From the NCBI RefSeq assembly GCF_003019035.1, contig NZ_CP027447.1: a stretch of 64,000 nucleotides of DNA; one strand, written 5' to 3'. A program made the position numbers and the translations under genes. Under the pieces are notes generated by a model. It was given only the letters and a program-made list of their open reading frames with translations, did no database searches and was not told the DNA's origin. The DNA is from Escherichia coli. GTDB lineage: Bacteria > Pseudomonadota > Gammaproteobacteria > Enterobacterales > Enterobacteriaceae. Below are positions 28,216-64,000 of the stretch, piece after piece (positions within the stretch are counted from its first letter, which is position 1; each line of letters starts with the position of its first letter).

Positions 28216-29031
28216 TTATTGGTTAAATGGCGCTTCGTGTTTAAGCACTTTATCGATCACATCCAGTACGCCTTCACGGTTATTGGAGCCTGCCCGGTAT
28301 TTTGCCGCTGCGACGACCGCGTTGCCGGCATTTTCCATTGCAAAACTAAAGCCTGCCTGACGCAGCATCTCAATATCGTTACCGCCATCGCCAAAGACCA
28401 CCACTTCGCTGTCGTCTATTCCCCATAATTTCTGCAGTTGGCGAAGGCCATTGGCTTTATGTATGCCGGGGATAATCAGATCGATGCTGCCGTTGCCGGT
28501 GTGGACCGGCACCATAATATCGCCGATGGCCTCATGTAATGCTTTTTGTACTTGTGGAATCAGTTCATCGGAAAGATTCAGACCAAACTTAAAGAAGATA
28601 TCTTCTAAGTTGTCAAAGTTATCGACGTATTCCAGACGGTGATAATACATTTCCGCCACCGTTTTCATGGCATCGTCATATTTTTTGAGGGTATAGGCGC
28701 TATTTTTTCCGCAGGCAATAATTTCCACTTCCGGGCGCGTCAGCAAATGTTCCACGACAGTAGCAAACGCATCCTTCGACAGCTCGCCATTAAAAACATC
28801 TTTGCCTTCGCTCACTACCCAGCCGCCGTTTTCAGCCACAAAGGCTATTTCATTAGCAATTTCCGGAAAGAAAGAGATCAACTGATAATATTGATTCCCG
28901 CTGGCGACCACAAAGCGAATGCCTTGTGCTTTCATTTGCTGATACTGAGCCATAAACCGCTCACGGTTATAGGTTTTTTGATCGCTTAAGAAAGTACCAT
29001 CCATGTCTACCGCAATTAATTTAATGCTCAT
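28216..29031 (-). CDS. ybjI: HAD-superfamily phosphatase (Cof-like; paralog of ybiV)
   Basis: 271-aa ORF; DMDGT and GDGGND HAD motifs; clearly paralogous to the ybiV product in this window. Confidence 0.9.
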   Translation of the reverse strand: MSIKLIAVDMDGTFLSDQKTYNRERFMAQYQQMKAQGIRFVVASGNQYYQLISFFPEIANEIAFVAENGGWVVSEGKDVFNGELSKDAFATVVEHLLTRPEVEIIACGKNSAYTLKKYDDAMKTVAEMYYHRLEYVDNFDNLEDIFFKFGLNLSDELIPQVQKALHEAIGDIMVPVHTGNGSIDLIIPGIHKANGLRQLQKLWGIDDSEVVVFGDGGNDIEMLRQAGFSFAMENAGNAVVAAAKYRAGSNNREGVLDVIDKVLKHEAPFNQ

Positions 29032-30239
29032 CAACTATTCTCCATCGCCGTCTGCGTTTTGGTATCGGGTTTGGCGACGGCTTTCGCGACAATAGCCGCG
29101 AGAATAACCAGCGCCAGTACAACCAGCATTGCACTACGTAATCCATAATGTTCGCCGAGATAGCCCAGTAGCGGCGGCCCGACGAGGAAAGCCAGATAAC
29201 CGGTCGTTGCTACCACACTGACGCGGGTTGGTGCATCGGGGCCGGTATCGCTGGCGGCAGAAATGGTCAGCGGGAAGCCCAGCGAGGCACCTAGTCCCCA
29301 AAGTACAACAGACACTCCTGCGACCCAGGCGCTATCGACAAAAATAATCAGCCCAATACCCAACGCCCCCATTAGTGCACTGGCCCGAACCACGGCAACG
29401 CGACTGTAACGGTCGATGAACCAACCGCCGGTGAAGCGTCCAACGGTCATCCCCAGGGTAAAACCGGCATAAATCAGCGAGCCGGAAGTAGGACTAAAAC
29501 CGTGACCGTCAACCATTAATAAGGGTAACCAGTCGTTGGCAGAACCTTCGGCAAAGGCCATCGCCAGCACCACAACACCAATCAACAGCAACTGGATATC
29601 GCGATAAAAAGGTACGCCTTTTTCGCCATGCTGGGTGCCATCGGCAGCATTTTTGCCCGTACCGTCAGGGATTGCCTGAATGGCGATATAAATAGGTGCG
29701 ATGCCTACCAGCGCCGCCAATAAAATATGCACCGTTGCCGGAACGCCAAAGGCCGTCAGTGCCATCCCGACACCAGCGCCTGCCAGCGTGCCCAGGCTAT
29801 AAAAACCGTGCATCATCGGCAAAACCGTTTTATTCATTTCTCGCTCAACGGCGGCACCTTCAACGTTTATCGCCACTTCCGCAGAACCAAAACTTGCCCC
29901 AAAGACGCCGAGACCAACCGCGAAGAGCAGGGGCGATGTCAGCCAGAGTGCCAGACTTAGTATCATCATCCCGATCAATGCGCAGGACATCGTGACCAGG
30001 ATGACATTACGCGTCCCAAAGCGTTTCACTAACCACGCCGAGCAGAGAATACCGCTCATTGAACCGATCGACAGACCAAAGAGGACTCCACCCATTTCAG
30101 CGATCGAGACAGAAAGAATATCGCGGATAGCAGGCGTACGGGTTGCCCAGGACGCCATTAACAGGCCCGGCAAAAAGAAGAACATAAACAGCGCCCAGGT
30201 TCGGCGTTTCAATGCATTACGTGAAGAATTTACGGTCAT
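29031..30239 (-). CDS. ybjJ: MFS-family inner-membrane transporter
   Basis: 402-aa hydrophobic multi-TM ORF. Confidence 0.88.
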
Positions 30240-30963: not shown

Positions 30964-32016
30964 TTATGGGGTAATGCCAACCGCTGCCGCCACTTTGTCG
31001 CCATTTGGTAACGTTGCCAGTGGATTGAAACGGAGCGCCGTTTCCAAATGATCCAGTGCCAGATGTGCATAACGCATAGTCATTTTTATATCGTGGTGTC
31101 CGAGAATTTTTTGTAAGGCCAAGATGTTTCCACCCGACATCATGAAGTGCGCCGCAAACGTATGGCGCAGAACGTGTGTCAGTTGACCGCGAGGGAGAAC
31201 GATAGACGTTTTTTCCATCACGGATAAAAATTGAAAATAGCAGTCTGTGAAGAAATTGAACCCATCGAGCGCCATGATCTCTTCATAAAGCTCTTTACTG
31301 ATAGGGATGCTTCTGTTTTTCTTCCCCTTCGTTCTCACAAAGGTGATTCGGTACTTGGTGACCTGTGAGCGGGTAAGATTGATTGCTTCTCGCCAACGTG
31401 CGCCTGTACTTAGACATATTTTTACCACCAGTGCCAGAATTGGGTTCTGACGTTTGCAGTCAGACAGTAATTCGATGATCTGCTCATGTGTAAGCCATGC
31501 CATTTCCTTTTCTGCGATAGTGAATTTGCGCATCTTCTCTAATGGGTTTGGAAGTGTCCATTCACCCAGGCGGGAAAGTTCTCTGAAAACGCTGCTTAGA
31601 TGGCTTTGCTCCAGGTTAACAGTAACTGGGCTTGCTCCTTTCTTCCATTTTTCACTGAAGTAGATTTCACCAGTAAGGCGTTTATCGCGATAGTGAGCAA
31701 ACATTTTTGAGGTGAGATCGGTTGCAAGGGGATTTCCCAAGGCGTCAACCATCAACAGCAGCTTGTTGTAGACATGCTGTCCGGCAGTAAGAGATTTGCC
31801 ATGTAATTTGAACCATAGCTCAACCATATCTTTCAGTGTCCGACGATCCACTGATTCGCCCAGCCAGGGCTTTGCTTCTATTTCCCCCATGGTGTATCGC
31901 TCGAAGGCCAGTGCTTCGCCTTTGGTGGCGAATTGTTTACGCACACGACGCCCATTACGTCCGGCGGGGTAACATTCGCAAAGCCATTTCCCTGTGGTGA
32001 GTTTTCGTACTGCCAT
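30964..32016 (-). CDS. int: Phage tyrosine integrase (P2 Int-like)
   Basis: Start chosen at MAVRKLTTGKW; C-terminal catalytic region (HVLRHTFAAHFMMSGGNILALQKILGHHDIKMTMRYAHL) carries the tyrosine-recombinase R-H-R-Y signature. Confidence 0.88.
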   Translation of the reverse strand: MAVRKLTTGKWLCECYPAGRNGRRVRKQFATKGEALAFERYTMGEIEAKPWLGESVDRRTLKDMVELWFKLHGKSLTAGQHVYNKLLLMVDALGNPLATDLTSKMFAHYRDKRLTGEIYFSEKWKKGASPVTVNLEQSHLSSVFRELSRLGEWTLPNPLEKMRKFTIAEKEMAWLTHEQIIELLSDCKRQNPILALVVKICLSTGARWREAINLTRSQVTKYRITFVRTKGKKNRSIPISKELYEEIMALDGFNFFTDCYFQFLSVMEKTSIVLPRGQLTHVLRHTFAAHFMMSGGNILALQKILGHHDIKMTMRYAHLALDHLETALRFNPLATLPNGDKVAAAVGITP

Positions 32017-32204
32017 AAAAAATGCCCTCCAGTAGAGAGCATTTTCACTGTATGTATAACCAGTGTCAATGTATGAAATCCTACGACCATACATCTCACT
32101 GAAGCCATAATTAAGTTGGCTATTCTTTTTGCTATGTGAGCATGTAACTTTTGCGGTTAACCTGCGGCTCATTTTTATTTTAGGCGCAGATATAAAAGCA
32201 AAAG

Positions 32205-35460: not shown

Positions 35461-36314
35461 GCACCATCCTGAAATGGGCGGGAAATAAAACTGCCATAAT
35501 GTCCGAACTGAAAAAACATCTTCCTGCTGGCCCGCGACTGGTTGAACCTTTCGCGGGTTCCTGTGCTGTGATGATGGAGACGGATTATCCCAGCTATCTG
35601 GTTGCGGATATTAATCCTGATTTAATCAACCTCTATAAAAAGGTTGTCGCTGATTGTGAATCGTTTATATCTCGCGCCAGAGTTTTATTTGAGAACGCAA
35701 ACAGGGAGATGGATTATTACAACATAAGGCAGGAGTTTAATTACTCAACTGAAATTACTGATTTCATGAAAGCGGTATATTTCCTGTATCTCAATCGTCA
35801 CGGTTACCGTGGTTTATGTCGCTATAACAAGAGCGGGCATTTCAACATTCCCTACGGTAATTATAAAAATCCGTATTTCCCTGAAAAAGAAATTCGCGCA
35901 TTTGCAGAGAAAGCCCAGCGGGCAACGTTTATCTGCGCCAGCTTTGATGAAACGCTGGCGATGCTGCAGGTGGGGGATGTGGTGTATTGCGATCCGCCTT
36001 ATGACGGCACGTTTTCCGGTTATCACACTGACGGCTTCACTGAAGATGACCAGTATCATCTGGCATCCGTTCTTGAGCATCGGTCATCAGAAGGACATCC
36101 GGTCATTGTTTCTAACAGTGACACATCCCTGATCCGTTCGCTGTATCGCAATTTTACTCACCACTACATCAAGGCAAAACGCAGCATCGGCGTAGCAGCT
36201 GGTGAGAGTAAATCTGCAACAGAAATCATCGCTGTTTCTGGGGCACGCTGCTGGGTGGGATTTGATCCTTCGCGTGGCGTGGATAGTTCTGCTGTGTACG
36301 AGGTGCGTGTATGA
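35457..36314 (+). CDS. DNA adenine (N6) methyltransferase, Dam-like, phage-encoded orphan
   Basis: Start at [14 protein letters not shown]-binding EPFAGSCAV and catalytic DPPY motif ([10 protein letters not shown]). Confidence 0.8.
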
Positions 36315-38725
36315 GTCATGACGATATGAGCAACTCTAGCGGCTTTAACGAGGCCGCTGCATCATTTTCATGGAACGGCCCGAAAAAGGCCATTAACCCT
36401 TATCTGGACCCGGCGGAAGTTGCGCCGGAGTCTGCACTTTCAAACCTGATCACTCTGTATGCTGCCGATAACGAGCAGGAACAACTGCGCCGCGAGGCAC
36501 TGAGTGAGCAGGTCTGGGAGCGTTATTTCTTTAATGAATCCCGTGATCCTGTCCAGCGCGAAATGGAGCAGGATAAGCTCATTAGCCGGGCAAAGCTGGC
36601 GCATGAGCAGCAGCGTTTTAATCCAGACATGGTCATTCTGGCTGACGTCAACGCCCAGCCTTCCCATATCAGCAAGCCGCTGATGCAACGTATTGAATAC
36701 TTCAGCAGCCTGGGCAGGCCAAAGGCTTATTCCCGCTATTTGCGTGAGACGATTAAGCCATGTCTGGAACGACTGGAGCATGTACGCGACAGTCAGCTAT
36801 CCACTTCTTTTCGCTTTATGGCAAGCCATGAAGGGCTGGACGGCCTGCTGATCCTGCCTGAAATGAGTCAGGATCAGGTGAAACGCCTGTCTACCCTTGT
36901 CGCTGCGCATATGAGCATGTGTCTTGATGCCGCTTGTGGTGATTTGTACGCCACCGATGATGTTAAGCCAGAAGAAATCCGCAAGACATGGGAAAAGGTG
37001 GCAGCGGAAACCCTACGTTTGGATGTCATCCCGCCTGCGTTTGAGCAACTCCGTCGGAAAAGAAACCGCCGTAAACCAGTGCCCTATGAACTCATTCCGG
37101 GCTCGCTGGCGCGTATGCTGTGCGCCGACTGGTGGTATCGGAAATTGTGGAAGATGCGTTGCGAATGGCGGGAAGAGCAGTTGCGTGCTGTCTGCCTGGT
37201 CAGCAAAAAAGCATCTCCCTATGTCAGCTATGAAGCTGTGATGCATAAACGTGAGCAGCGCCGTAAGTCGCTGGAGTTTTTCCGTTCTCATGAACTGGTG
37301 AACGAAGACGGAGACGCGCTGGATATGGAAGATGTGGTAAACGCCAGCTGCAGCAACCCGGCGCATCGCCGCAATGAGATGATGGCCTGTGTTAAAGGTC
37401 TGGAGCTTATCGCGGAAATGCGCGGTGACTGCGCCGTTTTCTACACCATTACCTGTCCGTCACGTTTCCATTCCACGCTCAATAACGGCAGACCCAACCC
37501 GACCTGGAAAAACGCGACGGTAAGACAAAGCAGCGATTATCTGGTCGGTATGTTTGCTGCATTTCGTAAGGCGATGCACAAAGCCGGGTTGCGCTGGTAT
37601 GGCGTGCGGGTGGCTGAGCCGCATCACGACGGCACAGTTCACTGGCACCTGTTGTGTTTCATGCGCAAAAAAGACCGCCGCGCCATTACTGCATTGTTGC
37701 GTAAGTTTGCTATCCGTGAAGACCGCGAGGAGCTGGGCAATAACACGGGGCCGCGCTTTAAGTCTGAGTTGATTAACCCGCGCAAAGGTACGCCAACAAG
37801 CTACATCGCGAAATACATCAGTAAGAACATTGACGGGCGTGGTCTGGCTGGCGAGATCAGCAAGGAAACGGGGAAATCCCTGCGTGATAATGCTGAATAC
37901 GTTAATGCCTGGGCGTCTCTGCATCGTGTTCAGCAATTCCGCTTCTTTGGCATTCCGGGGCGTCAGGCTTACCGCGAACTGCGATTGCTGGCTGGTCAGG
38001 CGGCAAGGCAACAGGGGGACAAAAAAGCAGGTGCGCCGGTACTGGATAACCCGCGCCTTGATGCAATCCTGGCTGCTGCTGATGCTGGTTGTTTTGCCAC
38101 CTACATCATGAAGCAGGGCGGCGTACTGGTTCCCCGCAAATATCACCTGATCAGAACCGCTTATGAAATCAACGAAGAGCCGACCGCCTATGGCGATCAC
38201 GGCATTCGTATTTATGGCATCTGGTCACCCATTGCAGAGGGCAAGATCTGCACTCATGCAGTGAAGTGGAAAATGGTTCGTAAGGCCGTTGACGTTCAGG
38301 AGGCGGCAGCCGACCAGGGCGCTTGCGCCCCTTGGACTCGTGGCAATAACTGTCCCCTTGCTGAAAATTTGAACCAACAAGGGAAAGACAAATCAGCTGA
38401 TGGGGACTCCAGAACGGATATTACCCGTATGAATGACAAGGAGTTGCACGATTACCTGCACAGTATGAGCAAAAAAGAGCGCCGGGAACTGGCTGCAAGG
38501 TTACGCCAGGTGAAACCGAAACGGCGTAAAGACTACAAACAGCGAATTACAGACCATCAGCGACAGCAGCTCGTCTATGAACTGAAGTCCAGGGGATTTG
38601 ATGGCAGCGAGAAAGAAGTCGATTTGCTCCTTCGCGGCGGCAGTATTCCGTCAGGAGCAGGCCTGCGTATCTTCTATCGGAACCAACGTCTGAAGGAAGA
38701 TGATAAGTGGCGGAACCTGTATTAA
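36311..38725 (+). CDS. Replication initiation endonuclease (P2 gpA-like, HUH rolling-circle family)
   Basis: 804-aa ORF; HUH motif (HWHLLCF) and catalytic tyrosine pair (SYIAKYISK). Confidence 0.88.
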
Positions 38726-39838: not shown

Positions 39839-40303
39839 GGAAACTCCTTTTATTGGTGTTTGCTATTTGAATAAAAATACGCCAAACAGAGTGTTAACTG
39901 TGAATATGGAAAGAATCGTTGTAAGTACCCCGCTTAGGTGTCCCATTCTATTTTAGAGGTTCTCGTGCATATGGATTATGTTATCTGAAAGTTAACTTCC
40001 GCTTCCCGTTCACAGCGAACATTCATCTTTGTAAACCCGTATGATCCGTTTTTCAAGTGGCCATTCAGATACGGATTTTCACTTCCTTGACAGTGCATGA
40101 CTATGCTGCATGAAATCGCATGATCGATTGAGGATCGTCTTTGCTCAGATCCGCCAGAACTGGCGGGCTTTTGCTCATGTCATGCATGTGCATGAAAACC
40201 ACTGCATAAAGCGGGCAGGCGTGGCGGGGATACGAGCGCGCGCTTATTACTTTGATAGTACTCGGGTTATAATATGGATGACTATCTATCTCGGAGAATG
40301 TGC

Positions 40304-41956
40304 ATGTCATTGGACTATATTAAAGAACAGTTGTCAGACTTTATTTCATCTGCAGAACCTGAGGTAATGGCTATTCAGGGTGAATGGGGGATTGGGAAAA
40401 CCTATACTTGGAATACTTTCTTAAAGGAAAATAAAAATAAGATTGCATTTAATAGATATAGTTACGTCTCTCTTTTTGGTGTTAATTCATTGGACGCATT
40501 AAAATATTCCATCTTTGAAAATACAATTACAAAAGATTTTATTGGAAATAAACCTAATTTAAAAACAGCAACACAAAATACAAAGGGACTTCTTGAATCC
40601 TGCACTAGAAAGACCGCTCGTTTGTTAAAAGAAACACCTGTTGTGAAAAATTTCGCTACGACACTTGAGTCAATGTCATTTATGTCAATTACTAATGTTA
40701 TTGTAGTCATAGATGACTTAGAAAGACGTGGTAAAAATTTAGAAGTGAAAGATGTCTTAGGGTTGGTTTCTTTATTGAAAGAACAAAAAAATTGTAAGGT
40801 GGTTCTTTTACTTAATAATGGGACAAGTGGTATGGATGATTACTCCACTTATAAAGAAAAGGTTATTGATAGAGAGATTACCTATAACCCTACGCCAGAA
40901 GAATGTGCAGCTATAGCATATAAAAATAATTCTGATGTTCATAAATTATTAAGCAAATACTCCATTTCTCTGGGTATTAAAAATATTCGGATACTGAAAA
41001 AAATAGAGCGGTTTTTGCTAGCCTTGTTACCTGCTATTAACGTTAATTTTGATAAAATTGCAAATGAAGTCGCACGCTCCTTAACTTTGTATTGTTGGAG
41101 TCATTACGCATTTACTCCAGATGGAGATGTACCATCATTGGAATATATTAGAAATATGAGAAATATCTATATGCGTGATGAAAAAGAGGATGGAAAAGGA
41201 AAAAAATGGCTTAATACTTTGCTTATATATGGTTATAAAAAAACAAACGAACTTGATGAAGTCCTTATAGACATGGTTAAGCATGGATATATTGATATGA
41301 ACAATTTTCAAAGGCAAGTAAGTCTAAGAAATGATGAACTTATCCGTGATAGTAAGCGAGGTTCACTGTTTGAAGCATGGAAGCTTTTCTATAATTCATT
41401 TGAAGATAACCGAAATCAGGTTGTTGATAATCTATATCAAGCGGTGGTTGGTGGGATAGAGTATGTAACTCCAAGTGACTTGGATAGTGTTGTCGGACTG
41501 TATAGAGATTTAGATGAAAATATTAAAGCAAGTGAATTAATAAGTAAATTTATTAATTACGGCAATGATGCTCTTAAGGAATATGTCCAATCTATTTACA
41601 TGAATGTTCATCCTATAAAAGATGCTGAGTTAAAGTCAAAAATCCAAGATTATTCTATTACTTTAAATCTGGATGGTTCTATAAAGGATGTTCTAATAAA
41701 ATTATCAAGTCAGAATGGTTGGTCTGATAGGCACGAGGAAATATTGGATGCTGCCTCAGAGGATGACTACTATGATTTATTTAAAAAAGTCATTCTTGAA
41801 GGTGGTGATTCAATAATAGCCACTGCTCTTAAGTTTGGTGGGTATAGCAATGGTTCAGATAGAATGAAACGCATCGGAGAAAAAGCGAGAAATGCTTTGA
41901 TAAGAATTGGAAATGAGTCGAAGATTAATAAAATACGTGTTAGACGGTATTTGTAA
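40304..41956 (+). CDS. KAP-family P-loop NTPase (alternative start at 40274)
   Basis: Walker A of KAP type (GEWGIGKTY) and Walker B (VIVVIDDLERRG); AT-rich codon usage unlike the flanking phage genes; lies at the P2 old/tin position between A and Q. Confidence 0.75.
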   Translation: MSLDYIKEQLSDFISSAEPEVMAIQGEWGIGKTYTWNTFLKENKNKIAFNRYSYVSLFGVNSLDALKYSIFENTITKDFIGNKPNLKTATQNTKGLLESCTRKTARLLKETPVVKNFATTLESMSFMSITNVIVVIDDLERRGKNLEVKDVLGLVSLLKEQKNCKVVLLLNNGTSGMDDYSTYKEKVIDREITYNPTPEECAAIAYKNNSDVHKLLSKYSISLGIKNIRILKKIERFLLALLPAINVNFDKIANEVARSLTLYCWSHYAFTPDGDVPSLEYIRNMRNIYMRDEKEDGKGKKWLNTLLIYGYKKTNELDEVLIDMVKHGYIDMNNFQRQVSLRNDELIRDSKRGSLFEAWKLFYNSFEDNRNQVVDNLYQAVVGGIEYVTPSDLDSVVGLYRDLDENIKASELISKFINYGNDALKEYVQSIYMNVHPIKDAELKSKIQDYSITLNLDGSIKDVLIKLSSQNGWSDRHEEILDAASEDDYYDLFKKVILEGGDSIIATALKFGGYSNGSDRMKRIGEKARNALIRIGNESKINKIRVRRYL

Positions 41957-41994: not shown

Positions 41995-43026
41995 CTAATT
42001 CAATGAATAATCTTTGAAGGCTATTATTTTTTTCTTTAGCCAAATATTAACTTCTACAAGTCTTTTTTGTAAAGGAATTAACTCATTTCGCACAAAAACG
42101 CAACCGGCTTTCTCTATATCCCCAAATCCCCCAACATTATTAGGCATTATCCCCATCATTTGTGGCGGTACACGGTGCGCAGCCATCATGTCATCGCGGC
42201 TGACATTTTTGATATTCAGAAACTCATCCTTCGCCGCGACTTCTGACAGAGGAATGATCTGAAGGCCGTCCTTTTTGCCGTTAGGCGAGTACATAAACAG
42301 GTTGCGGAAGTTGCCTGGACCTTTGGCGCTTTTCATCGCGTTGCGGAGATTGTTCACATCCTCCTGATTCTGCGCGGCGTCGGTCATGTACATGATGAAG
42401 CCTGCATGGCTGCCGTTGATGTAATACTTACGGCGGAACAGCGTGGCAGACTCGTTGAGCAGGGCGGATGGAATGGCAGAAAGATAGCCTGGCAGGCCGT
42501 AGATCTCCTGGTTGATGTCCGGTTCCATCAGATGAAAAATGCTGCCTTTCGTGAACTGATACGGCTGGGTTGTCATACCGTATTGCACAAACCAGTAGGT
42601 ATCCAGGTCTAACCCACGTCGGGTGTATTTTGCCAGCGCAGGCTCAAGGGCGATAACTTCACCGAATCGGTTCGTGCGTTTCTCCAGGTAGGCGTTACCA
42701 AATACCAGATAGTCCTGCACAAAACGCGAAAAAGCCTGTTGGCTGAGCAGCGGATGAGGGATATAGGTACTGGTCAGAATGTTGCACTTTACTGCAATCG
42801 GGGAACTGTGATGCACGGCAGCGCGGAAGGTGCGTGCCAGTCCGTCAAAACTTACGGGTGGCTCATACCAGCGATCCGTCTGTACGCATTCCACATAGTC
42901 CAGCAGTTCGCGGCGGTCCAGTACAGGAATGGGATCACCAAAGCTGAAAGCTTCGGCTGAAATTTGATTTTTATGCTGACTCTGTTTCGTCGTCGCAGCG
43001 CGGTTTTTCTTACTCTTTCCCATCAA
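41995..43026 (-). CDS. Portal protein (P2 gpQ-like)
   Basis: 343-aa ORF adjacent to and co-oriented with the large terminase gene, as in P2. Confidence 0.85.
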   Translation of the reverse strand: MMGKSKKNRAATTKQSQHKNQISAEAFSFGDPIPVLDRRELLDYVECVQTDRWYEPPVSFDGLARTFRAAVHHSSPIAVKCNILTSTYIPHPLLSQQAFSRFVQDYLVFGNAYLEKRTNRFGEVIALEPALAKYTRRGLDLDTYWFVQYGMTTQPYQFTKGSIFHLMEPDINQEIYGLPGYLSAIPSALLNESATLFRRKYYINGSHAGFIMYMTDAAQNQEDVNNLRNAMKSAKGPGNFRNLFMYSPNGKKDGLQIIPLSEVAAKDEFLNIKNVSRDDMMAAHRVPPQMMGIMPNNVGGFGDIEKAGCVFVRNELIPLQKRLVEVNIWLKKKIIAFKDYSLN

Positions 43027-56409: not shown

Positions 56410-56832
56410 ATGAGAACGTATCGCTATGACGCAATAACAAACGCATTTTATCCGTATGAGCTACAGAATGAGTATGAACAAGCAGGGATGTGGCCGGAGT
56501 CGGGCCATGATGTGAATGAAGATATTTTTCAGCAATTCATCAACCCTCCCGCAGGTAAGGTGCGTGTTGCCGGGAATGACGGAATGCCAGCATGGGGGGA
56601 TATTCCGCCACCGGCTCATGATGAACTCGTTGCGGTAGCAGATGTGAAAAAAGCAGCACTATTGGCAGAAGCGTCAGTCGTTATCGCCCCGCTGGCTGAT
56701 GCACAGGCGGGCGGTTATATCGATGACGCTGACGTGCCGCGACTGGCAGCATGGCAGAAATATCGCTATGCACTGACGAAAGTGGATACATCAACTGCGC
56801 CGGATATCACCTGGCCGCTGCAACCAGTGTAG
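56410..56832 (+). CDS. Tail fibre assembly chaperone (P2 gpG-like)
   Basis: 140-aa ORF directly after the fibre gene. Confidence 0.75.
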   Translation: MRTYRYDAITNAFYPYELQNEYEQAGMWPESGHDVNEDIFQQFINPPAGKVRVAGNDGMPAWGDIPPPAHDELVAVADVKKAALLAEASVVIAPLADAQAGGYIDDADVPRLAAWQKYRYALTKVDTSTAPDITWPLQPV

Positions 56833-57016
56833 AAATCTTTAGTGTAAATCGTCAAAGATGCTGGCGACTTGATGATTGATGACGGTATCAGTGATGATAA
56901 TTTACAGGTTGTACGGGAATAATACATAACAATTTGAATGGGGTATAATAGATAAATAATACATCATCATACCCCATTTTAGCCATTATCTATTGGCAAA
57001 AATATTCTTAATACCT

Positions 57017-58054
57017 TTATATTTGCCTACCTCCTAATAAAATGTGTGAGGTGTATTTGTTGGTTTTCAATAACCTTGCTACAATTATACAGGTGGTTAC
57101 AATAAGGAAAACAAATGAAGGGGTTATGATGAGGTTATATATGAGTGGATTTTCGCATAGGTTATTAATGTTCACGTATGCCTCTATTCTGTGAAAAATA
57201 AACGACGAGATTATATAGATGGGAAAGGTGTAAGTACCGACAAAGGATGTGGCTCGTATAAATAAATTATTTTTCGTTGATAAAAATGTATAAGCATATA
57301 TAAGCGATATGCTTCCGGCGAAGCCAATGAAGTAGCGAAATATAATAATGAATGATTGATGCCAGAAATCAACATTCTCATATGTCATTTTAGATATGTA
57401 AATATAATACTCTCTATTCCATAGGAGAAGCATACCAATCCATGTTAATACGGCTAACACACCAATTTTGTGCCTATTTCTAGAGGCAAAATCTAAAATG
57501 CGATGGGCGGATATACCAGCGATAAAATAAGGGGCCATAAATTTAATTTTGTCCATATTCCAATCATCTCCATATGCAAGGGATATACTAAATATCAGTA
57601 AATAAAGCACCACAGAATATTGTTTGCTTATTGAGTGACAAATAGTATAAACAATAGATACTGCAAAGAGTGCAGAAAGGAACCAGAAGGCGTAGATGGC
57701 TCCATATCTAATATTTATTAAATTTATATCTCTTCCCACAAAAATGGATTCAGCAATGAACCATGCAATGGATGGGATTATTAACTGCATGAATTTTCTT
57801 TTGATAATTGATGATGGTTTTCTCTTGAGAGAAAAATAGAAAAGATAGCCGCTAAGCAGCATAAAAAATGGCATGTGGAAGCTGTAAATGGTAATAAATA
57901 ATGGGTTGTCAAAAAAATTGAAACTATCTTTTTTTACAAACTGAATTGAATGGCCCCACACGACAAAAATTATAGCTAATCCTTTCATTGAGTCTATAAT
58001 GGAATTTCGAGTGCTGGGTGTCTCTGTTATAATAAGATGTGGTTCGTTTTTCAT
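57017..58054 (-). CDS. Membrane acyltransferase (acyltransferase-3 family; candidate LPS O-acetyltransferase)
   Basis: 345-aa polytopic ORF; N-terminal RNSIIDSMKGLAIIFVVWGHS typical of OafA/Oac-type acyltransferases; AT-rich; at the P2 Z/fun position. Confidence 0.75.
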   Translation of the reverse strand: MKNEPHLIITETPSTRNSIIDSMKGLAIIFVVWGHSIQFVKKDSFNFFDNPLFITIYSFHMPFFMLLSGYLFYFSLKRKPSSIIKRKFMQLIIPSIAWFIAESIFVGRDINLINIRYGAIYAFWFLSALFAVSIVYTICHSISKQYSVVLYLLIFSISLAYGDDWNMDKIKFMAPYFIAGISAHRILDFASRNRHKIGVLAVLTWIGMLLLWNREYYIYISKMTYENVDFWHQSFIIIFRYFIGFAGSISLIYAYTFLSTKNNLFIRATSFVGTYTFPIYIISSFIFHRIEAYVNINNLCENPLIYNLIITPSFVFLIVTTCIIVARLLKTNKYTSHILLGGRQI

Positions 58055-58385
58055 TTAATTTGTCAACTTTAGATTGAGTGGTATAAGAATTGCAACTAAA
58101 CACTCGTGAGCTAATATTTACATATATTATCAATGATCATTAATTCAATCAATTAGGAATTGCTTTATTGTATGTAACAGATTCTCATTTTGGGGTAGAT
58201 GCTACTATTGCTGTCATCACACCATAAATTAAGTCCATTCATATTAGATATCTTGGGTCGTTCCGGGAAGTACACGGCCACTATCAGTAAATGTGTGGTA
58301 AGAGCTTCACCAGTCGAACGTTTTTGAAAATACAGAGATAATGGCTAACAGGCATCATCCCCGGTTTTTATTTAGGGGGATGCTC

Positions 58386-58706
58386 ATGCTTATTGGCTAT
58401 GTACGTGTATCAACAAATGACCAGAACACTGATTTGTAATGCAATGCGCTGAACTGCGCGGGATGTGCGCGGATTTTTGAGGATAAAATCAGTGGCACTA
58501 AGTCCGACAGGCCGGGACTGGCTGCAGCTCGCGCCAAAGGCAGAGTAGGTGGACGCCGTCCTAAGTTGACCACCGAACAGTGGGCACAGATTGGACGTTT
58601 ACTCGAGGCCGGAGAATCAAGACAGCGTATTGCACTGATTTTTGATGTAGGCGTTTCTACCATTTATCGAAAATTTCCGGCAAATAAGAGCAATGAATCT
58701 CCCTGA
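58386..58706 (+). pseudogene. Decayed serine DNA invertase (Gin/Pin/Hin family)
   Basis: N-terminal MLIGYVRVSTNDQNTDL stops at 58437..58439; a downstream frame encodes DKISGTKSDRPGLAAARAKGRVGGRRPKLTTEQWAQIGRLLEAGESRQRIALIFDVGVSTIYRKF (HTH C-terminus); the central catalytic region is missing. Confidence 0.7.
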
Positions 58707-58848: not shown

Positions 58849-60021
58849 ATGGCTCAGGATTACCACCACGGGGTGCGCGTAGTTGAAGTCAACGAAGGCA
58901 CCCGATCCATTACCACGGTGAGCACCGCCATCGTGGGTATGGTCTGCACGGGCGATGATGCCGATGCAAAAATGTTTCCTCTTAATAAACCCGTGCTGAT
59001 CACTGATGTGCTGACTGCCAGCGGTAAAGCGGGTGAGTCCGGTACGCTGGCCCGTTCGCTGGATGCCATCGCTGACCAGGCAAAACCCGTGACCGTTGTT
59101 GTGCGTGTGCCGCAGGGTGAAACGGAAGAAGAAACCACGACCAATATCATCGGAGCAGTGACCGCTGAAGGTAAAAAAACAGGCATGAAAGCCCTGTTAT
59201 CTGCCCAGTCACAGCTCGGCGTTAAACCGCGCATTCTCGGCGTGCCAGGTCACGACACGAAGGCGGTAGCTACTGAGTTGCTGAGCGTGGCGCAAAGCCT
59301 GCGTGGGTTTGCTTACCTGTCAGCGTATGGTTGCAAGACGGTGCAGGAAGCAATCACTTACCGTGAAAACTTCAGTCAGCGTGAAGGAATGCTGATCTGG
59401 CCCGACTTTACTGGCTGGGACACGGTGCTGAATGCCGAAGCAACGGCTTATGCCACCGCCCGTGCGCTTGGTCTGCGCGCTAAAATTGACGAGCAGACCG
59501 GATGGCACAAAAGCCTGTCCAACGTGGGCGTGAACGGTGTCACCGGAATTTCTGCTGATGTGTTCTGGGATCTGCAGGACCCGGCAACCGATGCAGGTCT
59601 GCTGAACCAGAACGACGTCACCACGCTTGTGCGTAAAGACGGTTTCCGCTTCTGGGGTTCCCGCAGCCTGAGTGATGACCCGCTCTTTGCCTTCGAAAAC
59701 TACACCCGCACGGCGCAGGTGTTGATGGACACGATGGCAGAAGCACACATGTGGGCGGTGGATAAACCGCTTAACCCGTCGCTGGCCCGCGACATTATCG
59801 AAGGTATCCGCGCCAAAATGCGCAGCCTGGTCAGTCAGGGCTATCTCATTGGTGGTGATTGCTGGCTGGATGAGTCGGTGAACGACAAAGACACGCTGAA
59901 AACCGGAAAACTCACCATCGACTATGACTACACGCCAGTGCCGCCACTTGAAAATCTGATGCTGCGCCAGCGCATCACCGATCAGTACCTGGTGAATTTC
60001 GCCAGCCAGGTCAGCGCGTAA
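58849..60021 (+). CDS. Tail sheath protein (P2 gpFI-like)
   Basis: 390-aa ORF followed by the tube gene. Confidence 0.85.
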
Positions 60022-60030
60022 GGGGACAAC

Positions 60031-60546
60031 ATGGCTTTACCACGCAAATTAAAACATCTGAACTTGTTTAACGACGGGAACAACTGGCAGGGGATCGTTG
60101 AGTCGCTGACGCTGCCGAAATTCACCCGCAAATATGAGAAGTATCGCGGCGGCGGTATGCCGGGGGCGGTGGATGTGGATCTGGGACTGGATGACAGTGC
60201 ACTGGATACAGAATTTTCCATTGGTGGTACTGAACTGCTGCTGTTTAAGCAGATGGGCAAATCCACGGTGGATGGCATCCAGCTGCGCTTTACCGGCTCT
60301 ATCCAGCGTGACGATACCGGGGAAGTGCAGGCCGTGGAGCTTGTCGTGCGTGGACGTCACAAAGAAGTGGATTCCGGCGAGTGGAAGACGGGCGAAAGCA
60401 ACACCACCAAAGTGACCAATACCAACAGCTACGCGAAGCTGACCATCAATGGTGAGGTGCTCTATGAAGTGGACCTTATCAACATGGTGGAAATTGTGGA
60501 CGGTGTGGACCTGATGGAAGCGCACCGCAACGCCCTCGGCCTCTGA
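60031..60546 (+). CDS. Tail tube protein (P2 gpFII-like)
   Basis: 171-aa ORF after the sheath gene. Confidence 0.85.
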   Translation: MALPRKLKHLNLFNDGNNWQGIVESLTLPKFTRKYEKYRGGGMPGAVDVDLGLDDSALDTEFSIGGTELLLFKQMGKSTVDGIQLRFTGSIQRDDTGEVQAVELVVRGRHKEVDSGEWKTGESNTTKVTNTNSYAKLTINGEVLYEVDLINMVEIVDGVDLMEAHRNALGL

Positions 60547-60600
60547 TGTATCTGAACGGCGCGGAATACCGCGCCAGAACCCAATTGACAGGACAGCAAA

Positions 60601-60903
60601 ATGAGCGATAAGCAGACTGAAAAGACCATTCAACTGGATACCCCCATCAAGCGCGGTAAAACAGAAATCACCGAAATTGTGCTGCGTAAACCGCAGTCCG
60701 GTGCGCTGCGCGGTACACGCCTGCAGGCCATTATGGATATGGATGTAAACGCGATGATGACCGTGATCCCCCGCATCTCCAGTCCGGCACTGACTGCACA
60801 GGAAATTGCAGAGATGGACCCGGCAGATCTCACTGCCATGTCGGTTGAGGTTGTCACTTTTTTGTTGAAGAAGTCGGTGCTTGCCGTTTTACCGACAGCC
60901 TGA
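60601..60903 (+). CDS. Tail assembly chaperone (P2 gpE-like)
   Basis: 100-aa ORF upstream of the tape measure gene; contains the slippery heptamer T_TTT_TTG at 60858..60864. Confidence 0.8.
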   Translation: MSDKQTEKTIQLDTPIKRGKTEITEIVLRKPQSGALRGTRLQAIMDMDVNAMMTVIPRISSPALTAQEIAEMDPADLTAMSVEVVTFLLKKSVLAVLPTA

Positions 60904-61037
60904 CGGTTGACGATCTGGTGGCAGATATCGCCACCATTTTTCACTGGCCGCCATCCGTTACTGACGTTATGCCGCTGACCGAAGTGCTGGAATGGCGGTA
61001 TAAAGCGATTCAGAGAAGCGGGGCCAACGATGAGTGA
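60601..61037 (+). other. Predicted -1 frameshift product E+E' (tail assembly chaperone extension)
   Basis: After slipping -1 at TTTTTTG the frame stays open to a TGA at 61035..61037 (…LTVDDLVADIATIFHWPPSVTDVMPLTEVLEWRYKAIQRSGANDE). Confidence 0.6.
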
Positions 61038-64000
61038 TAACAACCTGCGTCTGCAGGTCATTCTTAATGCGGTTGACAAGCTCACCCGCCCATTTCGATC
61101 TGCGCAGGCCAGTTCAAGAGAACTGGCTGCTGCTGTCAAAAAATCCCGCGATGCAATAAAGCAGCTTGATCAGGCCGGGAGCAGTCTGGACAGCTTCCGA
61201 AAGCTGCAGGCAGAAAATCAGAAATTAGGCGACAGGCTGAACTATGCCCGCCAGCGTGCAAATTTGCTCAGTCAGGAACTGGGAGCGATGGGGCCGCCTT
61301 CGCAACGTCAGGTTGTTGCTCTGGGCCGTCAACGGCTGGCTGTTCAGCGCCTGGAAGAACGCCAGAAAAAGCTGCAGCAGCAGACGGCGCTTGTGCGTGC
61401 TGAACTGTACCGGGCGGGAATTTCTGCGAAAGACGATGCGGGAGCAACTGCCCGTTTAGCCCGTGAAACATCACGTTATAACCAGGAACTTTCGAAACAG
61501 GAGGCGCGGCTGAAGCGACTGGGGGAAGCTCAGCGCAGGATGAATGCAGCGCGTGCCAGTTATGCCCGTTCGCTGGAGGTGCGTGATCGTATTGCAGGTG
61601 CCGGAGCCACCACCACGGCTGCAGGGCTGGCAATGGGTGCGCCAGTGATGGCGGCAGTAAAAAGCTATACCAGCATGGAAGATGCCATGAAAGGTGTGGC
61701 AAAGCAGGTCAATGGTCTGCGTGACGATAATGGCAACCGCACTGCACGTTTTTATGAAATGCAGGATGCCATCAAGGCTGCCAGCGAACAGTTGCCGATG
61801 GAAAACGGTGCGGTGGACTTCGCTGCACTGGTTGAAGGTGGTGCGCGCATGAACGTCGCAAACCCTGACGACAGCTGGGAAGATCAGAAACGTGACCTGC
61901 TGGCCTTCGCCAGTACGGCAGCAAAGGCGGCAACAGCCTTTGAGCTGCCAGCGGATGAACTGTCAGAAAGTCTGGGGAAAATCGCCCAGCTCTACAAAAT
62001 CCCCACCCGCAATATTGAACAGCTCGGTGATGCGCTGAACTATCTGGATGATAACGCCATGTCGAAAGGGGCAGACATCATTGATGTGATGCAACGTCTG
62101 GGCGGTGTGGCTGACCGTCTGGATTATCGTAAAGCGGCGGCGCTGGGTTCCACCTTCCTGACACTGGGCGCTGCGCCAGAGGTTGCAGCCAGTGCAGCAA
62201 ACGCGATGGTGCGTGAATTGTCCATTGCCACCATGCAAAGCAAGAGTTTCTTTGAAGGGATGAATCTGCTGAAACTCAATCCTGAAGTGATTGAAAAGCA
62301 GATGACGAAGGATGCGATGGGAACCATCCAGCGCGTGCTGGAGAAGGTAAACGCGCTGCCGCAGGACAAGCGCCTGTCTGCCATGACTATGTTGTTTGGT
62401 AAAGAGTTTGGCGATGACGCGGCGAAACTGGCAAACAACCTGCCGGAACTGCAGCGTCAGTTAAAACTGACAGCGGGCAATGATGCGCTTGGCTCCATGC
62501 AGAAAGAATCCGACATTAACAAGGATTCACTTTCTGCGCAGTGGTTGCTGGTCAAAACCGGAGCGCAGAACACCTTCAGCAGCCTGGGCGAAACGCTGCG
62601 CCAGCCGCTGATGGATATTCTGTACACGGTGAAAAGCGTCACGGGGGCGTTGCGTCGCTGGGTGGAAGCTAACCCGGAACTGACAGGCACACTGATGAAA
62701 GCATCGGCTGTTGTGGCTGCGGTTACCGTCGGCCTCGGCACCTTAGCGGTGGCGCTGGCTGCAGTGCTGGGGCCGCTGGCAGTGATCCGTCTGGGATTCT
62801 CTGTGTTGGGTATCAAAACGTTATCTTCCGTTACGGCAGCAGTAACCCGAACCAGCAGCGCGTTGTCCTGGCTGGCTGGCGCACCACTGGCACTGCTGCG
62901 ACGCGGGCTTGCTTCATCGGGCAACGCCGCAGGTTTACTTACTGCGCCGTTGTCGTCTTTGCGCCGCACGGCATCACTGACGGGAAATGTCCTGAAAACT
63001 GTAGCAGGTGCGCCGGTTGCATTTTTGCGGTCTGGATTATCCGGTTTACGTGCTGTTGCTGTGATGTTTATGAATCCTCTGGCGGTACTGCGCGGTGGAC
63101 TGGCCGCCGCAGGCACGGTGCTGCGAGTACTGGCATCTGGTCCACTGGCGATGCTGCGCGTTGCCCTGTATGTCATATCTGGTCTGTTAGGTGCTCTGCT
63201 CAGTCCGATAGGTCTTGTGGTTACTGCACTGGCGGGCGTGGCGCTGGTTGTCTGGAAATACTGGCAACCCATCACCGCATTTCTCGGTGGCGTGGTGGAA
63301 GGATTCAAAGCGGCGGCAGGTCCCATCAGTGCAGCGTTCGAACCGCTTAAGCCCGTGTTCCAGTGGATTGGCGACAAAGTGCAGGCGCTGTGGGGCTGGT
63401 TTACTGATCTGCTGACGCCCGTTAAGTCGACCTCTGCCGAACTGCAGAGCGCAGCGGCAATGGGGCGGCGATTCGGGGAGGCACTGGCGGAAGGGCTGAA
63501 TATGGTCATGCATCCGCTGGACTCCCTGAAATCCGGCGTTTCCTGGTTGCTGGAGAAGCTCGGCATTGTCAGTAAAGAGGCCGCAAAGGCAAAACTGCCG
63601 GAAAGCGTGACGCGTCAGCAACCTGCGACGGTGAATGCAGACGGTAAAGTGATGATGCCATCGGGTGGTTTTCCATCATGGGGATATGGCTTTGCGGGGA
63701 TGTATGACAGCGGCGGGTATATCCCGCGCGGGCAGTTTGGCATCGTCGGTGAAAACGGGCCGGAAATTGTTAACGGCCCGGCAAATGTGACCAGCCGGAG
63801 AAATACAGCTGCACTGGCTGCCGTTGTTGCCGGAATGATGGGCGTTGCTGCCGCGCCAGCAGAGCTTCCACCGTTGCACCCCTTGGCACTTCCCGCGAAA
63901 GGTGGAGAAGCAATTGTGAGTCGCGCAGCCACTGTGCCGCTCGTTCAACGGATTGAGGCACCGACGCAGATCATCATTCAGACGCAGCCAGGACAAAGTG
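61030..64000 (+). CDS. Tail tape measure protein (P2 gpT-like), 3' end beyond window
   Basis: ATG at 61030 (MSDNNLRLQVILNAV); frame open to the window end (>980 codons); Ala/Leu-rich repetitive middle; absent from the ORF track because no stop lies in the window. Confidence 0.8.
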   Translation, partial: MSDNNLRLQVILNAVDKLTRPFRSAQASSRELAAAVKKSRDAIKQLDQAGSSLDSFRKLQAENQKLGDRLNYARQRANLLSQELGAMGPPSQRQVVALGRQRLAVQRLEERQKKLQQQTALVRAELYRAGISAKDDAGATARLARETSRYNQELSKQEARLKRLGEAQRRMNAARASYARSLEVRDRIAGAGATTTAAGLAMGAPVMAAVKSYTSMEDAMKGVAKQVNGLRDDNGNRTARFYEMQDAIKAASEQLPMENGAVDFAALVEGGARMNVANPDDSWEDQKRDLLAFASTAAKAATAFELPADELSESLGKIAQLYKIPTRNIEQLGDALNYLDDNAMSKGADIIDVMQRLGGVADRLDYRKAAALGSTFLTLGAAPEVAASAANAMVRELSIATMQSKSFFEGMNLLKLNPEVIEKQMTKDAMGTIQRVLEKVNALPQDKRLSAMTMLFGKEFGDDAAKLANNLPELQRQLKLTAGNDALGSMQKESDINKDSLSAQWLLVKTGAQNTFSSLGETLRQPLMDILYTVKSVTGALRRWVEANPELTGTLMKASAVVAAVTVGLGTLAVALAAVLGPLAVIRLGFSVLGIKTLSSVTAAVTRTSSALSWLAGAPLALLRRGLASSGNAAGLLTAPLSSLRRTASLTGNVLKTVAGAPVAFLRSGLSGLRAVAVMFMNPLAVLRGGLAAAGTVLRVLASGPLAMLRVALYVISGLLGALLSPIGLVVTALAGVALVVWKYWQPITAFLGGVVEGFKAAAGPISAAFEPLKPVFQWIGDKVQALWGWFTDLLTPVKSTSAELQSAAAMGRRFGEALAEGLNMVMHPLDSLKSGVSWLLEKLGIVSKEAAKAKLPESVTRQQPATVNADGKVMMPSGGFPSWGYGFAGMYDSGGYIPRGQFGIVGENGPEIVNGPANVTSRRNTAALAAVVAGMMGVAAAPAELPPLHPLALPAKGGEAIVSRAATVPLVQRIEAPTQIIIQTQPGQS

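What the first reader, a model, noticed from the sequence alone, without database searches (positions are those of the whole stretch)
60858..61037. Programmed -1 frameshift site for tail chaperone E/E' upstream of the tape measure gene
The heptamer T_TTT_TTG lies near the 3' end of the gpE-like ORF, and the -1 frame remains open for 57 more codons, ending 8 nt into the tape measure gene. This is the conserved G/GT-type frameshift of long-tailed phages and P2 E/E'. It supports correct annotation of the tail module and argues that the tail assembly genes are intact.
Basis: partly seen in the sequence, partly recalled or inferred. Interest (0 to 1): 0.3.

Follow-up and report, generated by a model that had tools for sequence, protein, structure and literature searches.

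The report
P2-type E/E' tail chaperone frameshift
This is the well-known programmed -1 ribosomal frameshift that lets a P2-family prophage make two versions (E and E+E') of its tail assembly chaperone from one gene start; it is real, intact and entirely ordinary.

Summary
A 100-codon gpE-like gene (60601-60903, +) carries T_TTT_TTG at 60858-60864 in the right phase. The -1 frame is open for 57 further codons, to TGA at 61035-61037, 8 nt inside the tape measure gene (ATG 61030).

The heptamer alone means nothing: there are 32 copies in the window against 22 expected. The context is decisive:
- The upstream ORF is Pfam Phage_TAC_7 (1e-18).
- The -1 extension matches Pfam Phage_P2_GpE over its full length (2.6e-18).
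- The -1 frame opens only 9 nt before the heptamer, which is the only in-phase slippery site in the 55-nt overlap.
- In 19 of 19 related Peduoviridae loci the E' segment lies in the -1 frame with an in-phase X_XXY_YYZ heptamer (TTTTTTG in 15).
- Substitutions in E' fall mostly on third codon positions.

In P2 the same heptamer gives E (91 aa) and E+E' (142 aa); here the sizes are 100 and 145 aa. The module occurs in 1113 of 5426 complete E. coli genomes, where automatic annotation splits E' off as a separate 39-aa gene.

Verdict: already known, low interest. The one loose end is a modest 7-bp hairpin 8 nt downstream, seen only in the closest clades.

The parts
60601..60903 (+). Gene E: tail assembly chaperone, zero-frame product of 100 aa
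   Evidence: ORF. Pfam PF10109 Phage_TAC_7, E = 1.1e-18, profile positions 1-78 of 79. PHROG 103 'tail protein', 9.6e-44. AGGA lies 9-12 nt upstream of the ATG.
60858..60864 (+). Slippery heptamer T_TTT_TTG, the -1 frameshift site
   Evidence: Phase read directly from the sequence. It is the only in-phase X_XXY_YYZ in the 55-nt two-frame overlap. The identical heptamer is present in 15 of 19 related loci and is the heptamer reported for P2 (PMC3091744).
60849..60903 (+). Overlap in which both the zero frame and the -1 frame are open; the shift must occur here
   Evidence: The -1 frame stop is TGA at 60846-60848 and the E stop is TGA at 60901-60903.
60864..61037 (+). E' segment: the -1 frame extension, 57 codons plus TGA. 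The predicted fusion E+E' is 145 aa, read as 60601-60864 joined to 60864-61037.
   Evidence: Translation. Pfam PF06528 Phage_P2_GpE, E = 2.6e-18, profile positions 1-37 of 37. PHROG 1756 (5e-23) matches residues 84-145, which spans the junction. Substitutions fall mostly on third codon positions: 11 of 18 against SEN8 and 13 of 19 against Klebsiella phage ST437-OXA245phi4.1.
60873..60896 (+). Candidate 7-bp hairpin (60873-60879 pairing with 60890-60896), 8 nt 3' of the heptamer. A possible weak frameshift stimulator; unproven.
   Evidence: It appears in the minimum-energy fold, but the fold's z-score is -0.04. Across 11 enterobacterial relatives 71% of cells pair against 62% in shuffles (0 of 500 shuffles reach this), and 4 pairs change on both sides. 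In the given register only 3 of the 7 pairs form in the P2-like phage L-413C (alignment).
61030..64000 (+). Gene T: tape measure protein, cut by the window end (at least 990 aa)
   Evidence: Open frame. Pfam PF10145 PhageMin_Tail, 2e-18. Homologues are annotated as tape measure. Its start overlaps the E' stop by 8 nt.
60031..60546 (+). Gene FII: tail tube protein, immediately upstream
   Evidence: Pfam PF04985 Phage_tube, 3e-59.
58849..60021 (+). Gene FI: tail sheath protein
   Evidence: Pfam PF04984, PF17482 and PF22671.

Best explanation
This is the E/E+E' tail assembly chaperone pair of a P2-family (Peduoviridae, Fels-2/SopEPhi-like) prophage, expressed by programmed -1 ribosomal frameshifting.

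Most ribosomes translate gene E to its stop at 60901-60903 and release the 100-aa chaperone. On U_UUU_UUG (60858-60864) a minority slip back one base: the P-site tRNA-Phe re-pairs from UUU to UUU and the A-site tRNA-Leu from UUG to UUU. Those ribosomes then read GUU GAA GAA... to UGA at 61035-61037 and make a 145-aa E+E' protein with the same N-terminus.

By analogy with lambda G/GT, the shared E part would coat the tape measure protein T, and the E' part would recruit the tube protein FII. The tube would then polymerise to the length set by T, and neither chaperone would stay in the virion. The E' stop overlaps the T start by 8 nt, which suggests translational coupling.

Status of each step:
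- Shown here: the anatomy, the homology of both parts, the frame relation and its conservation.
- Shown elsewhere, for P2: that the shift happens and that E' is essential.
- Inferred: the efficiency in this prophage, the binding partners and the coupling.
For: - Anatomy and phase.
- Synteny sheath-tube-E-E'-tape measure.
- E is Phage_TAC_7 (1e-18), and the -1 product is Phage_P2_GpE over the full profile (2.6e-18).
- PHROG 1756 matches across the junction, residues 84-145.
- 424 phage records match the fusion, and 269 hold most of it; almost every row shown is a two-piece match.
- In 19 of 19 related loci (E. coli, Salmonella, Klebsiella, Yersinia, Erwinia, Burkholderia, Ralstonia, Pseudomonas, Stenotrophomonas, Vibrio, Mannheimia) E' is in the -1 frame with an in-phase heptamer. 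It is TTTTTTG in 15, and TTTTTTT, TTTTTTC, CCCTTTC and GGGAAAG in one each.
- L-413C, KS14, Smp131, Milagro and EtG carry curated -1 frameshift joins.
- The fusion proteins align through the junction column, with 15 invariant residues, 8 of them in E'.
- Third-position bias of substitutions in the E' frame.
- Literature: the P2 shift at TTTTTTG gives E 91 aa and E+E' 142 aa and is conserved in P2-like phages (PMC3091744). The lambda G/GT mechanism is described, with the note that P2-type efficiency is 2-3 fold higher, in PMC5009743.
Against: - No frameshift product has been observed for this prophage.
- The bare heptamer is frequent in the window.
- There is no thermodynamically significant downstream stimulator (z = -0.04; z from -1.1 to +1.2 in 13 relatives). 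This matches what is reported for P2.
- The functional roles of E and E' are extrapolated from lambda G/GT, not demonstrated for P2-type myovirus tails in anything I could read.
Confidence: 0.93

Rival explanations
1. E' is an independent small gene. It would be translated from its own start (GTG 60918) as a 39-aa 'GpE family phage tail protein', as automatic annotation has it, with no frameshift.
For: RefSeq and GenBank annotations of near-identical DNA list a separate 120-nt CDS. The homologous codon is ATG or GTG in 16 of the 19 sequences aligned.
Against: - No Shine-Dalgarno-like sequence precedes GTG 60918; the upstream bases are ACGGTTGACGATCTG.
- The homologous codon is not a start codon in RSA1 (GCC), Mannheimia phage 587AP1 (ATT) or Vibrio phage MAR (TGG).
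- The -1 frame is conserved as protein upstream of that codon, back to the heptamer: motifs [AVS]E[VLA]G and ...VDDL, and the PHROG 1756 match starts at residue 84.
- The -1 frame relation and an in-phase heptamer are kept in 19 of 19 relatives, which independent initiation would not require.
- For P2, translation as a fusion was shown experimentally (Christie 2002, as cited in PMC3091744).
Confidence: 0.03
2. The -1 frame is reached by transcriptional slippage. RNA polymerase would add one extra U on the T6 run, so a fraction of the mRNAs encode E+E' directly.
For: The site is a homopolymeric run of six T. Transcriptional slippage is a known route to frame change in bacteria (reviewed in PMC5009743).
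Against: - Six residues is short for efficient slippage; from my own knowledge, runs of about 8-9 or more are usually needed.
- Two relatives keep the frame relation with CCCTTTC and GGGAAAG. These are classical tandem-slippage heptamers with no long homopolymer and cannot support transcriptional slippage.
- The heptamer phase is conserved in 19 of 19 relatives. Phase matters for tRNA re-pairing but not for polymerase slippage.
Confidence: 0.03
3. Chance: an off-frame open stretch and a common heptamer with no function.
For: The heptamer occurs 32 times in the window. 5.4% of codon positions have a -1 frame open for at least 57 codons.
Against: Full-length Pfam match of the -1 product at 2.6e-18. 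Conservation in hundreds of phages. Codon-position bias of substitutions.
Confidence: 0.005

Closest known systems
Bacteriophage P2 genes E and E+E' (-1 frameshift at TTTTTTG; Christie et al. 2002, as cited in PMC3091744)
   Same: - The same heptamer, in the same phase near the 3' end of E.
- The same gene order FI-FII-E/E'-T.
- A 57-codon extension, as in P2-like L-413C.
- The same 8-nt overlap of the E' stop with the T start.
- The same Pfam families for both parts.
- No strong downstream RNA structure.
   Different: - The fusion protein is only 49% identical to that of P2-like L-413C.
- E is 100 aa rather than 91, because 12 rather than 6 zero-frame codons follow the heptamer. The fusion is 145 aa rather than 142.
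- The host phage belongs to the Fels-2/SopEPhi-like branch: 85% nucleotide identity to Felsduovirus SEN8 and SopEPhi.
- A 7-bp hairpin 8 nt downstream is present here but is not kept in the P2-like sequence.
Bacteriophage lambda G/GT tail assembly chaperones (Levin 1993; Xu, Hendrix & Duda 2004, 2013, 2014; summarised in PMC5009743)
   Same: - Position between the major tail (tube) gene and the tape measure gene.
- Two products share an N-terminus through a -1 shift near the end of the upstream ORF.
- The presumed roles match: the shared part binds the tape measure and the extension binds the tube subunit.
   Different: - No sequence similarity, and a different heptamer (lambda uses G_GGA_AAG).
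- This is a contractile-tailed phage.
- Frameshift efficiency in P2-type phages is reported as 2-3 fold higher than in lambda (PMC5009743).
- Binding partners have not been demonstrated for the P2 type in anything read here.
Annotated homologues in Salmonella phage SEN8 / SopEPhi and Klebsiella and E. coli Peduoviridae prophages
   Same: - 85-99.5% nucleotide identity over 60540-61100.
- Identical heptamer and identical E and E+E' lengths in SEN8 and in the E. coli plasmid-prophage p13P477T-2.
- The module is present in 1113 of 5426 complete E. coli genomes.
   Different: Essentially nothing. Those records annotate E' as a separate 39-aa CDS rather than as a frameshift join.

Membership tests
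P2-type E/E+E' programmed -1 frameshift (Peduoviridae tail assembly chaperone pair) | Located between the tail tube gene (FII) and the tape measure gene (T) | tested here: met
   FII is 60031-60546 (PF04985, 3e-59). T starts at 61030 (PF10145, 2e-18).
P2-type E/E+E' programmed -1 frameshift (Peduoviridae tail assembly chaperone pair) | The upstream ORF belongs to the gpE chaperone family | tested here: met
   PF10109 Phage_TAC_7, 67.5 bits against a cut-off of 25. PHROG 103, 9.6e-44.
P2-type E/E+E' programmed -1 frameshift (Peduoviridae tail assembly chaperone pair) | The -1 frame extension encodes the conserved E' (Phage_P2_GpE) domain | tested here: met
   PF06528, 65.6 bits against a cut-off of 23, profile positions 1-37 of 37. 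PHROG 6416 and 1756.
P2-type E/E+E' programmed -1 frameshift (Peduoviridae tail assembly chaperone pair) | An X_XXY_YYZ slippery heptamer, in zero-frame phase, inside the overlap of the two frames (TTTTTTG in P2) | tested here: met
   T_TTT_TTG at 60858-60864 is the only candidate in the 55-nt overlap.
P2-type E/E+E' programmed -1 frameshift (Peduoviridae tail assembly chaperone pair) | The frame relation and the slippery site are conserved in relatives | tested here: met
   19 of 19 related loci have the -1 relation and an in-phase heptamer. In 269 phage records one place covers at least 80% of the fusion, and almost all rows shown are two-piece matches.
P2-type E/E+E' programmed -1 frameshift (Peduoviridae tail assembly chaperone pair) | E' has no translation initiation site of its own | tested here: inconclusive
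   A GTG exists at 60918, but no Shine-Dalgarno motif precedes it. The homologous codon is not a start in 3 of the 19 sequences aligned. Protein conservation extends upstream to the heptamer. Sequence alone cannot exclude weak internal initiation.
P2-type E/E+E' programmed -1 frameshift (Peduoviridae tail assembly chaperone pair) | A fusion protein is actually produced (about 10% in P2, from my memory of Christie 2002) and E' is essential | not testable with these tools
   This needs proteomics, reporter assays or genetics. The primary paper (PMC135442) is not held in the library.
Lambda G/GT-like tail assembly chaperones (functional class) | Tail assembly chaperone fold of the shared N-terminal part | tested here: inconclusive
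Lambda G/GT-like tail assembly chaperones (functional class) | The short form binds the tape measure, the extension binds the tube subunit, and both are absent from virions | not testable with these tools
   Inferred from lambda (PMC5009743).

The most novel reading that the evidence does not exclude
The Fels-2/SopEPhi-like branch, to which this prophage belongs, may have acquired a dedicated frameshift stimulator that P2 lacks. This would be the 7-bp hairpin at 60873-60879 / 60890-60896, placed 8 nt after the heptamer, and it would set a different E:E+E' ratio. Pairing is maintained by compensatory changes between the E. coli/Salmonella and Klebsiella clades (U-A to C-G, and G-U to A-U). However, the fold is no more stable than shuffled sequence, and the region is constrained by coding in two frames.
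Probability: 0.15. Interest if true: 0.2.

Novelty: already known. Interest (0 to 1): 0.07.

Why it matters
The value is practical rather than scientific.

- It confirms that this part of the window is a P2-family prophage tail module with an intact chaperone pair.
- It shows that the usual automatic annotation of this DNA is wrong in form. In about a fifth of complete E. coli genomes E' is listed as a separate 39-aa 'GpE family phage tail protein'. It should be a -1 frameshift join: 60601..60864 joined to 60864..61037, giving 145 aa.

It opens no new question about frameshifting or tail assembly.

Tried and rejected
- **Downstream stimulatory RNA structure.** I folded the 61 nt after the heptamer in the window and in 13 relatives. 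All z-scores lay between -1.1 and +1.2, so there is no excess stability. One local 7-bp hairpin shows some covariation in 11 close relatives. The sample is small and related, and the structure was derived from the window itself, so I keep it only as a low-probability lead.
- **Terminator-like hairpin inside E'.** The hairpin with a T5 tail at 60916-60936 came from the scan. The T run is broken in the nearest relatives (ATCTTTC). Neither the local helix nor an alternative long-range helix exceeds shuffles. I rejected it as a by-product of coding for the conserved ...ADIATIFHW motif.
- **NCBIfam.** No model matched either product.
- **Primary P2 paper.** The paper (Christie 2002; DOI and PMC135442) is not in the held library. 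Its content is cited through PMC3091744 and from my own memory, and is marked as such.
- **Script artefact.** An apparent second 'frameshift' (AAAAAAG at 36915-37241 with 504 open -1 codons) is an off-frame ORF inside the 804-aa replication gene at 36311-38725.

Full report
**1. The observation**

Reading 60300-61400 and listing ORFs shows a 100-codon ORF at 60601-60903 on the + strand. Its zero frame reads ...GTC ACT TTT TTG TTG AAG AAG..., so the six-T run plus G at 60858-60864 is phased T_TTT_TTG.

Translation of the -1 frame shows a stop at 60846-60848. The frame is then open from 60849 to TGA at 61035-61037. Counting from the codon after the slip (GTT at 60864), that is 57 sense codons.

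The next gene starts at ATG 61030 and is open to the window end, at least 990 codons. The E' stop therefore lies 8 nt inside it.

**2. Is it more than chance?**

The pattern alone is not. TTTTTTG occurs 32 times in the window, against 22.4 +/- 4.7 in shuffles. A -1 frame open for at least 57 codons is found at 5.4% of codon positions inside the window's long ORFs.

What lifts it far above chance is what the two frames encode:
- The zero-frame product is Pfam Phage_TAC_7, 'tail assembly chaperone proteins E, or 41 or 14' (1.1e-18).
- The -1 frame product matches Pfam Phage_P2_GpE over the whole profile, positions 1-37 of 37 (2.6e-18).
- PHROG families 103 (E), 6416 (E') and 1756 also match. PHROG 1756 covers fusion residues 84-145, across the junction.

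The flanking genes are sheath (58849-60021), tube (60031-60546) and tape measure (61030 onward). This is the P2 order FI-FII-E-E'-T.

**3.

The 561 bases around the site are 97-99.5% identical to E. coli and Klebsiella Peduoviridae prophages. They are 85% identical to Salmonella phages SEN8 and SopEPhi (Felsduovirus), and about 70% identical, over part of the query only, to P2 and L-413C.

tblastn with the predicted fusion finds 424 phage records. In 269 of them one place covers at least 80% of the query, and almost every row shown is joined from two pieces, as expected when the two parts lie in different frames.

I fetched 19 loci spanning hosts from Escherichia to Burkholderia, Ralstonia, Pseudomonas, Stenotrophomonas, Vibrio and Mannheimia. 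I then located both parts by tblastn. In all 19, E' lies in the -1 frame relative to E, and an in-phase X_XXY_YYZ heptamer lies in the overlap:
- TTTTTTG in 15 loci;
- TTTTTTT in Smp131;
- TTTTTTC in Vibrio phage MAR;
- CCCTTTC in Klebsiella phage ST16-OXA48phi5.4;
- GGGAAAG in the Mannheimia phage, whose authors also flagged it.

Five of these records carry curated -1 frameshift joins: L-413C, KS14, Smp131, Milagro and EtG.

The fusion proteins align through the junction column, and 8 of the 15 invariant residues lie in E'. Between the window and SEN8 or Klebsiella phage ST437-OXA245phi4.1, substitutions in the E'-only part fall mainly on the third codon position of the E' frame: 11 of 18 and 13 of 19. 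This is the signature of a translated frame.

**4. Mechanism**

The best explanation is tandem -1 slippage of tRNA-Phe (P site) and tRNA-Leu (A site) on U_UUU_UUG. This gives E (100 aa) and, from a minority of ribosomes, E+E' (145 aa: 88 residues from the zero frame plus 57 from the -1 frame).

For P2 the same heptamer yields E (91 aa) and E+E' (142 aa) (PMC3091744, citing Christie 2002 and Xu 2004). My reconstruction of the P2-like L-413C locus gives exactly those lengths. From my memory of the abstract of Christie 2002, the P2 shift runs at about 10% and E' is essential; that paper is not in the held library. PMC5009743 states that efficiency in P2-type phages is 2-3 fold above that of lambda.

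The roles of the two proteins are inferred from lambda G/GT (PMC5009743). The shared part would bind the tape measure. The extension would recruit the tube subunit. Both would be absent from the virion.

**5. Rivals**

*Independent initiation of E'.* Automatic annotation starts a 39-aa E' at GTG 60918. This is disfavoured for four reasons:
- No Shine-Dalgarno motif precedes the GTG.
- The homologous codon is not a start codon in 3 of the 19 sequences aligned.
- Protein conservation runs upstream of it, back to the heptamer.
- The -1 relation and the phased heptamer are universal, which independent initiation would not require.

*Transcriptional slippage on T6.* This is disfavoured because two relatives use CCCTTTC and GGGAAAG, and because the heptamer phase is conserved.

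*Pure chance.* This is excluded.

**6. RNA structure**

The 61 nt after the heptamer fold no better than shuffled sequence, in the window (z = -0.04) and in 13 relatives (z from -1.1 to +1.2). This agrees with the reported absence of a stimulator in P2 and in the Burkholderia P2-like phages (PMC3091744).

One local 7-bp hairpin (60873-60879 pairing with 60890-60896) starts 8 nt after the heptamer. In an ungapped alignment of 11 enterobacterial relatives it is paired in 71% of cells, against 62% in shuffles (0 of 500 shuffles reach this). Four pairs change on both sides, and all slid registers score lower.

Three caveats apply. The structure was taken from the window itself. The sequences are related. 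The stretch codes in two frames. In the given register only 3 of the 7 pairs form in the P2-like sequence. I keep the hairpin as a low-probability lead only.

A terminator-like hairpin inside E' (60916-60936) is not conserved as such and is a by-product of coding.

**7. Comparison and novelty**

By every sequence-level defining feature I could test, this is a member of the P2 E/E+E' family. It works like lambda G/GT. Near-identical DNA is in public phage records, and the tail module is present in 1113 of 5426 complete E. coli genomes.

Nothing here is new except the reminder that pipelines annotate E' as a separate small gene instead of a frameshift join. It cannot be extended to the tape measure, which runs off the window: 990 of about 1025 codons are seen.

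**8. Verdict**

The feature is already known and of low interest (0.07).

Noticed in passing
window 50394-52494 (- strand): Two minus-strand genes sit inside the prophage's late (tail and lysis) region. One is a 418-aa AAA_15/AAA_21 ATPase matching PADLOC AriA (2e-38). The other is a 285-aa DUF4435 protein matching AriB (2e-21). Together they form a PARIS-type anti-phage defence pair carried as prophage cargo.
   Followed up: partly
window 40274-41956 (+ strand): A 560-aa KAP-family P-loop NTPase (Pfam 2.7e-9) matches the PADLOC candidate defence family PDC-S49 (3.7e-25). It lies between the 804-aa replication-type gene (36311-38725) and a 343-aa ORF on the minus strand (41995-43026) that is the size of the P2 portal gene Q but was not scanned. 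From memory, this is the position of the P2 tin/old cargo hotspot.
   Followed up: partly
window 56700-58300; gene 57017-58054 (- strand): A 33% GC island lies in 52-57% GC phage DNA. It carries a 345-aa Acyl_transf_3 membrane acyltransferase (5e-27) between the tail-fibre assembly gene (56410-56832) and the sheath gene. It is probably a lysogenic-conversion gene that modifies surface polysaccharide. From memory, it sits where P2 has Z/fun and SopEPhi has sopE.
   Followed up: partly
window 58566-58706 (+ strand): A 46-aa ORF consists only of the C-terminal HTH_7 domain of a Hin/Gin-type DNA invertase (3.7e-13). It is a remnant next to the low-GC island, suggesting a decayed tail-fibre inversion switch.
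   Followed up: no
window 30964-32172 (- strand) and 29031-30239 (- strand): A 402-aa tyrosine integrase (Int_N plus Phage_integrase domains) lies next to an MFS transporter gene. This probably marks the left end of the prophage, which would then extend beyond the right end of the window.
   Followed up: no
window 60873-60896 (+ strand): A 7-bp hairpin lies 8 nt downstream of the slippery heptamer. Compensatory changes maintain it among the closest clades, but it has no excess thermodynamic stability and is not kept in P2-like phages.
   Followed up: partly
window 60916-60945 (+ strand): An intrinsic-terminator-like hairpin with a T5 run lies inside the E' coding extension. The T run is broken in the nearest relatives and there is no covariation, so it is most likely a by-product of the conserved ADIATIFHW codons.
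   Followed up: yes
window 60918-61037; RefSeq E. coli genomes: Automatic annotation consistently lists E' as a stand-alone 39-aa 'GpE family phage tail protein' starting at a GTG, rather than as a -1 frameshift join with the upstream 'phage tail assembly protein'. This was seen in the ten best-matching RefSeq E. coli genomes (the module occurs in 1113 of 5426) and in several phage records.
   Followed up: yes
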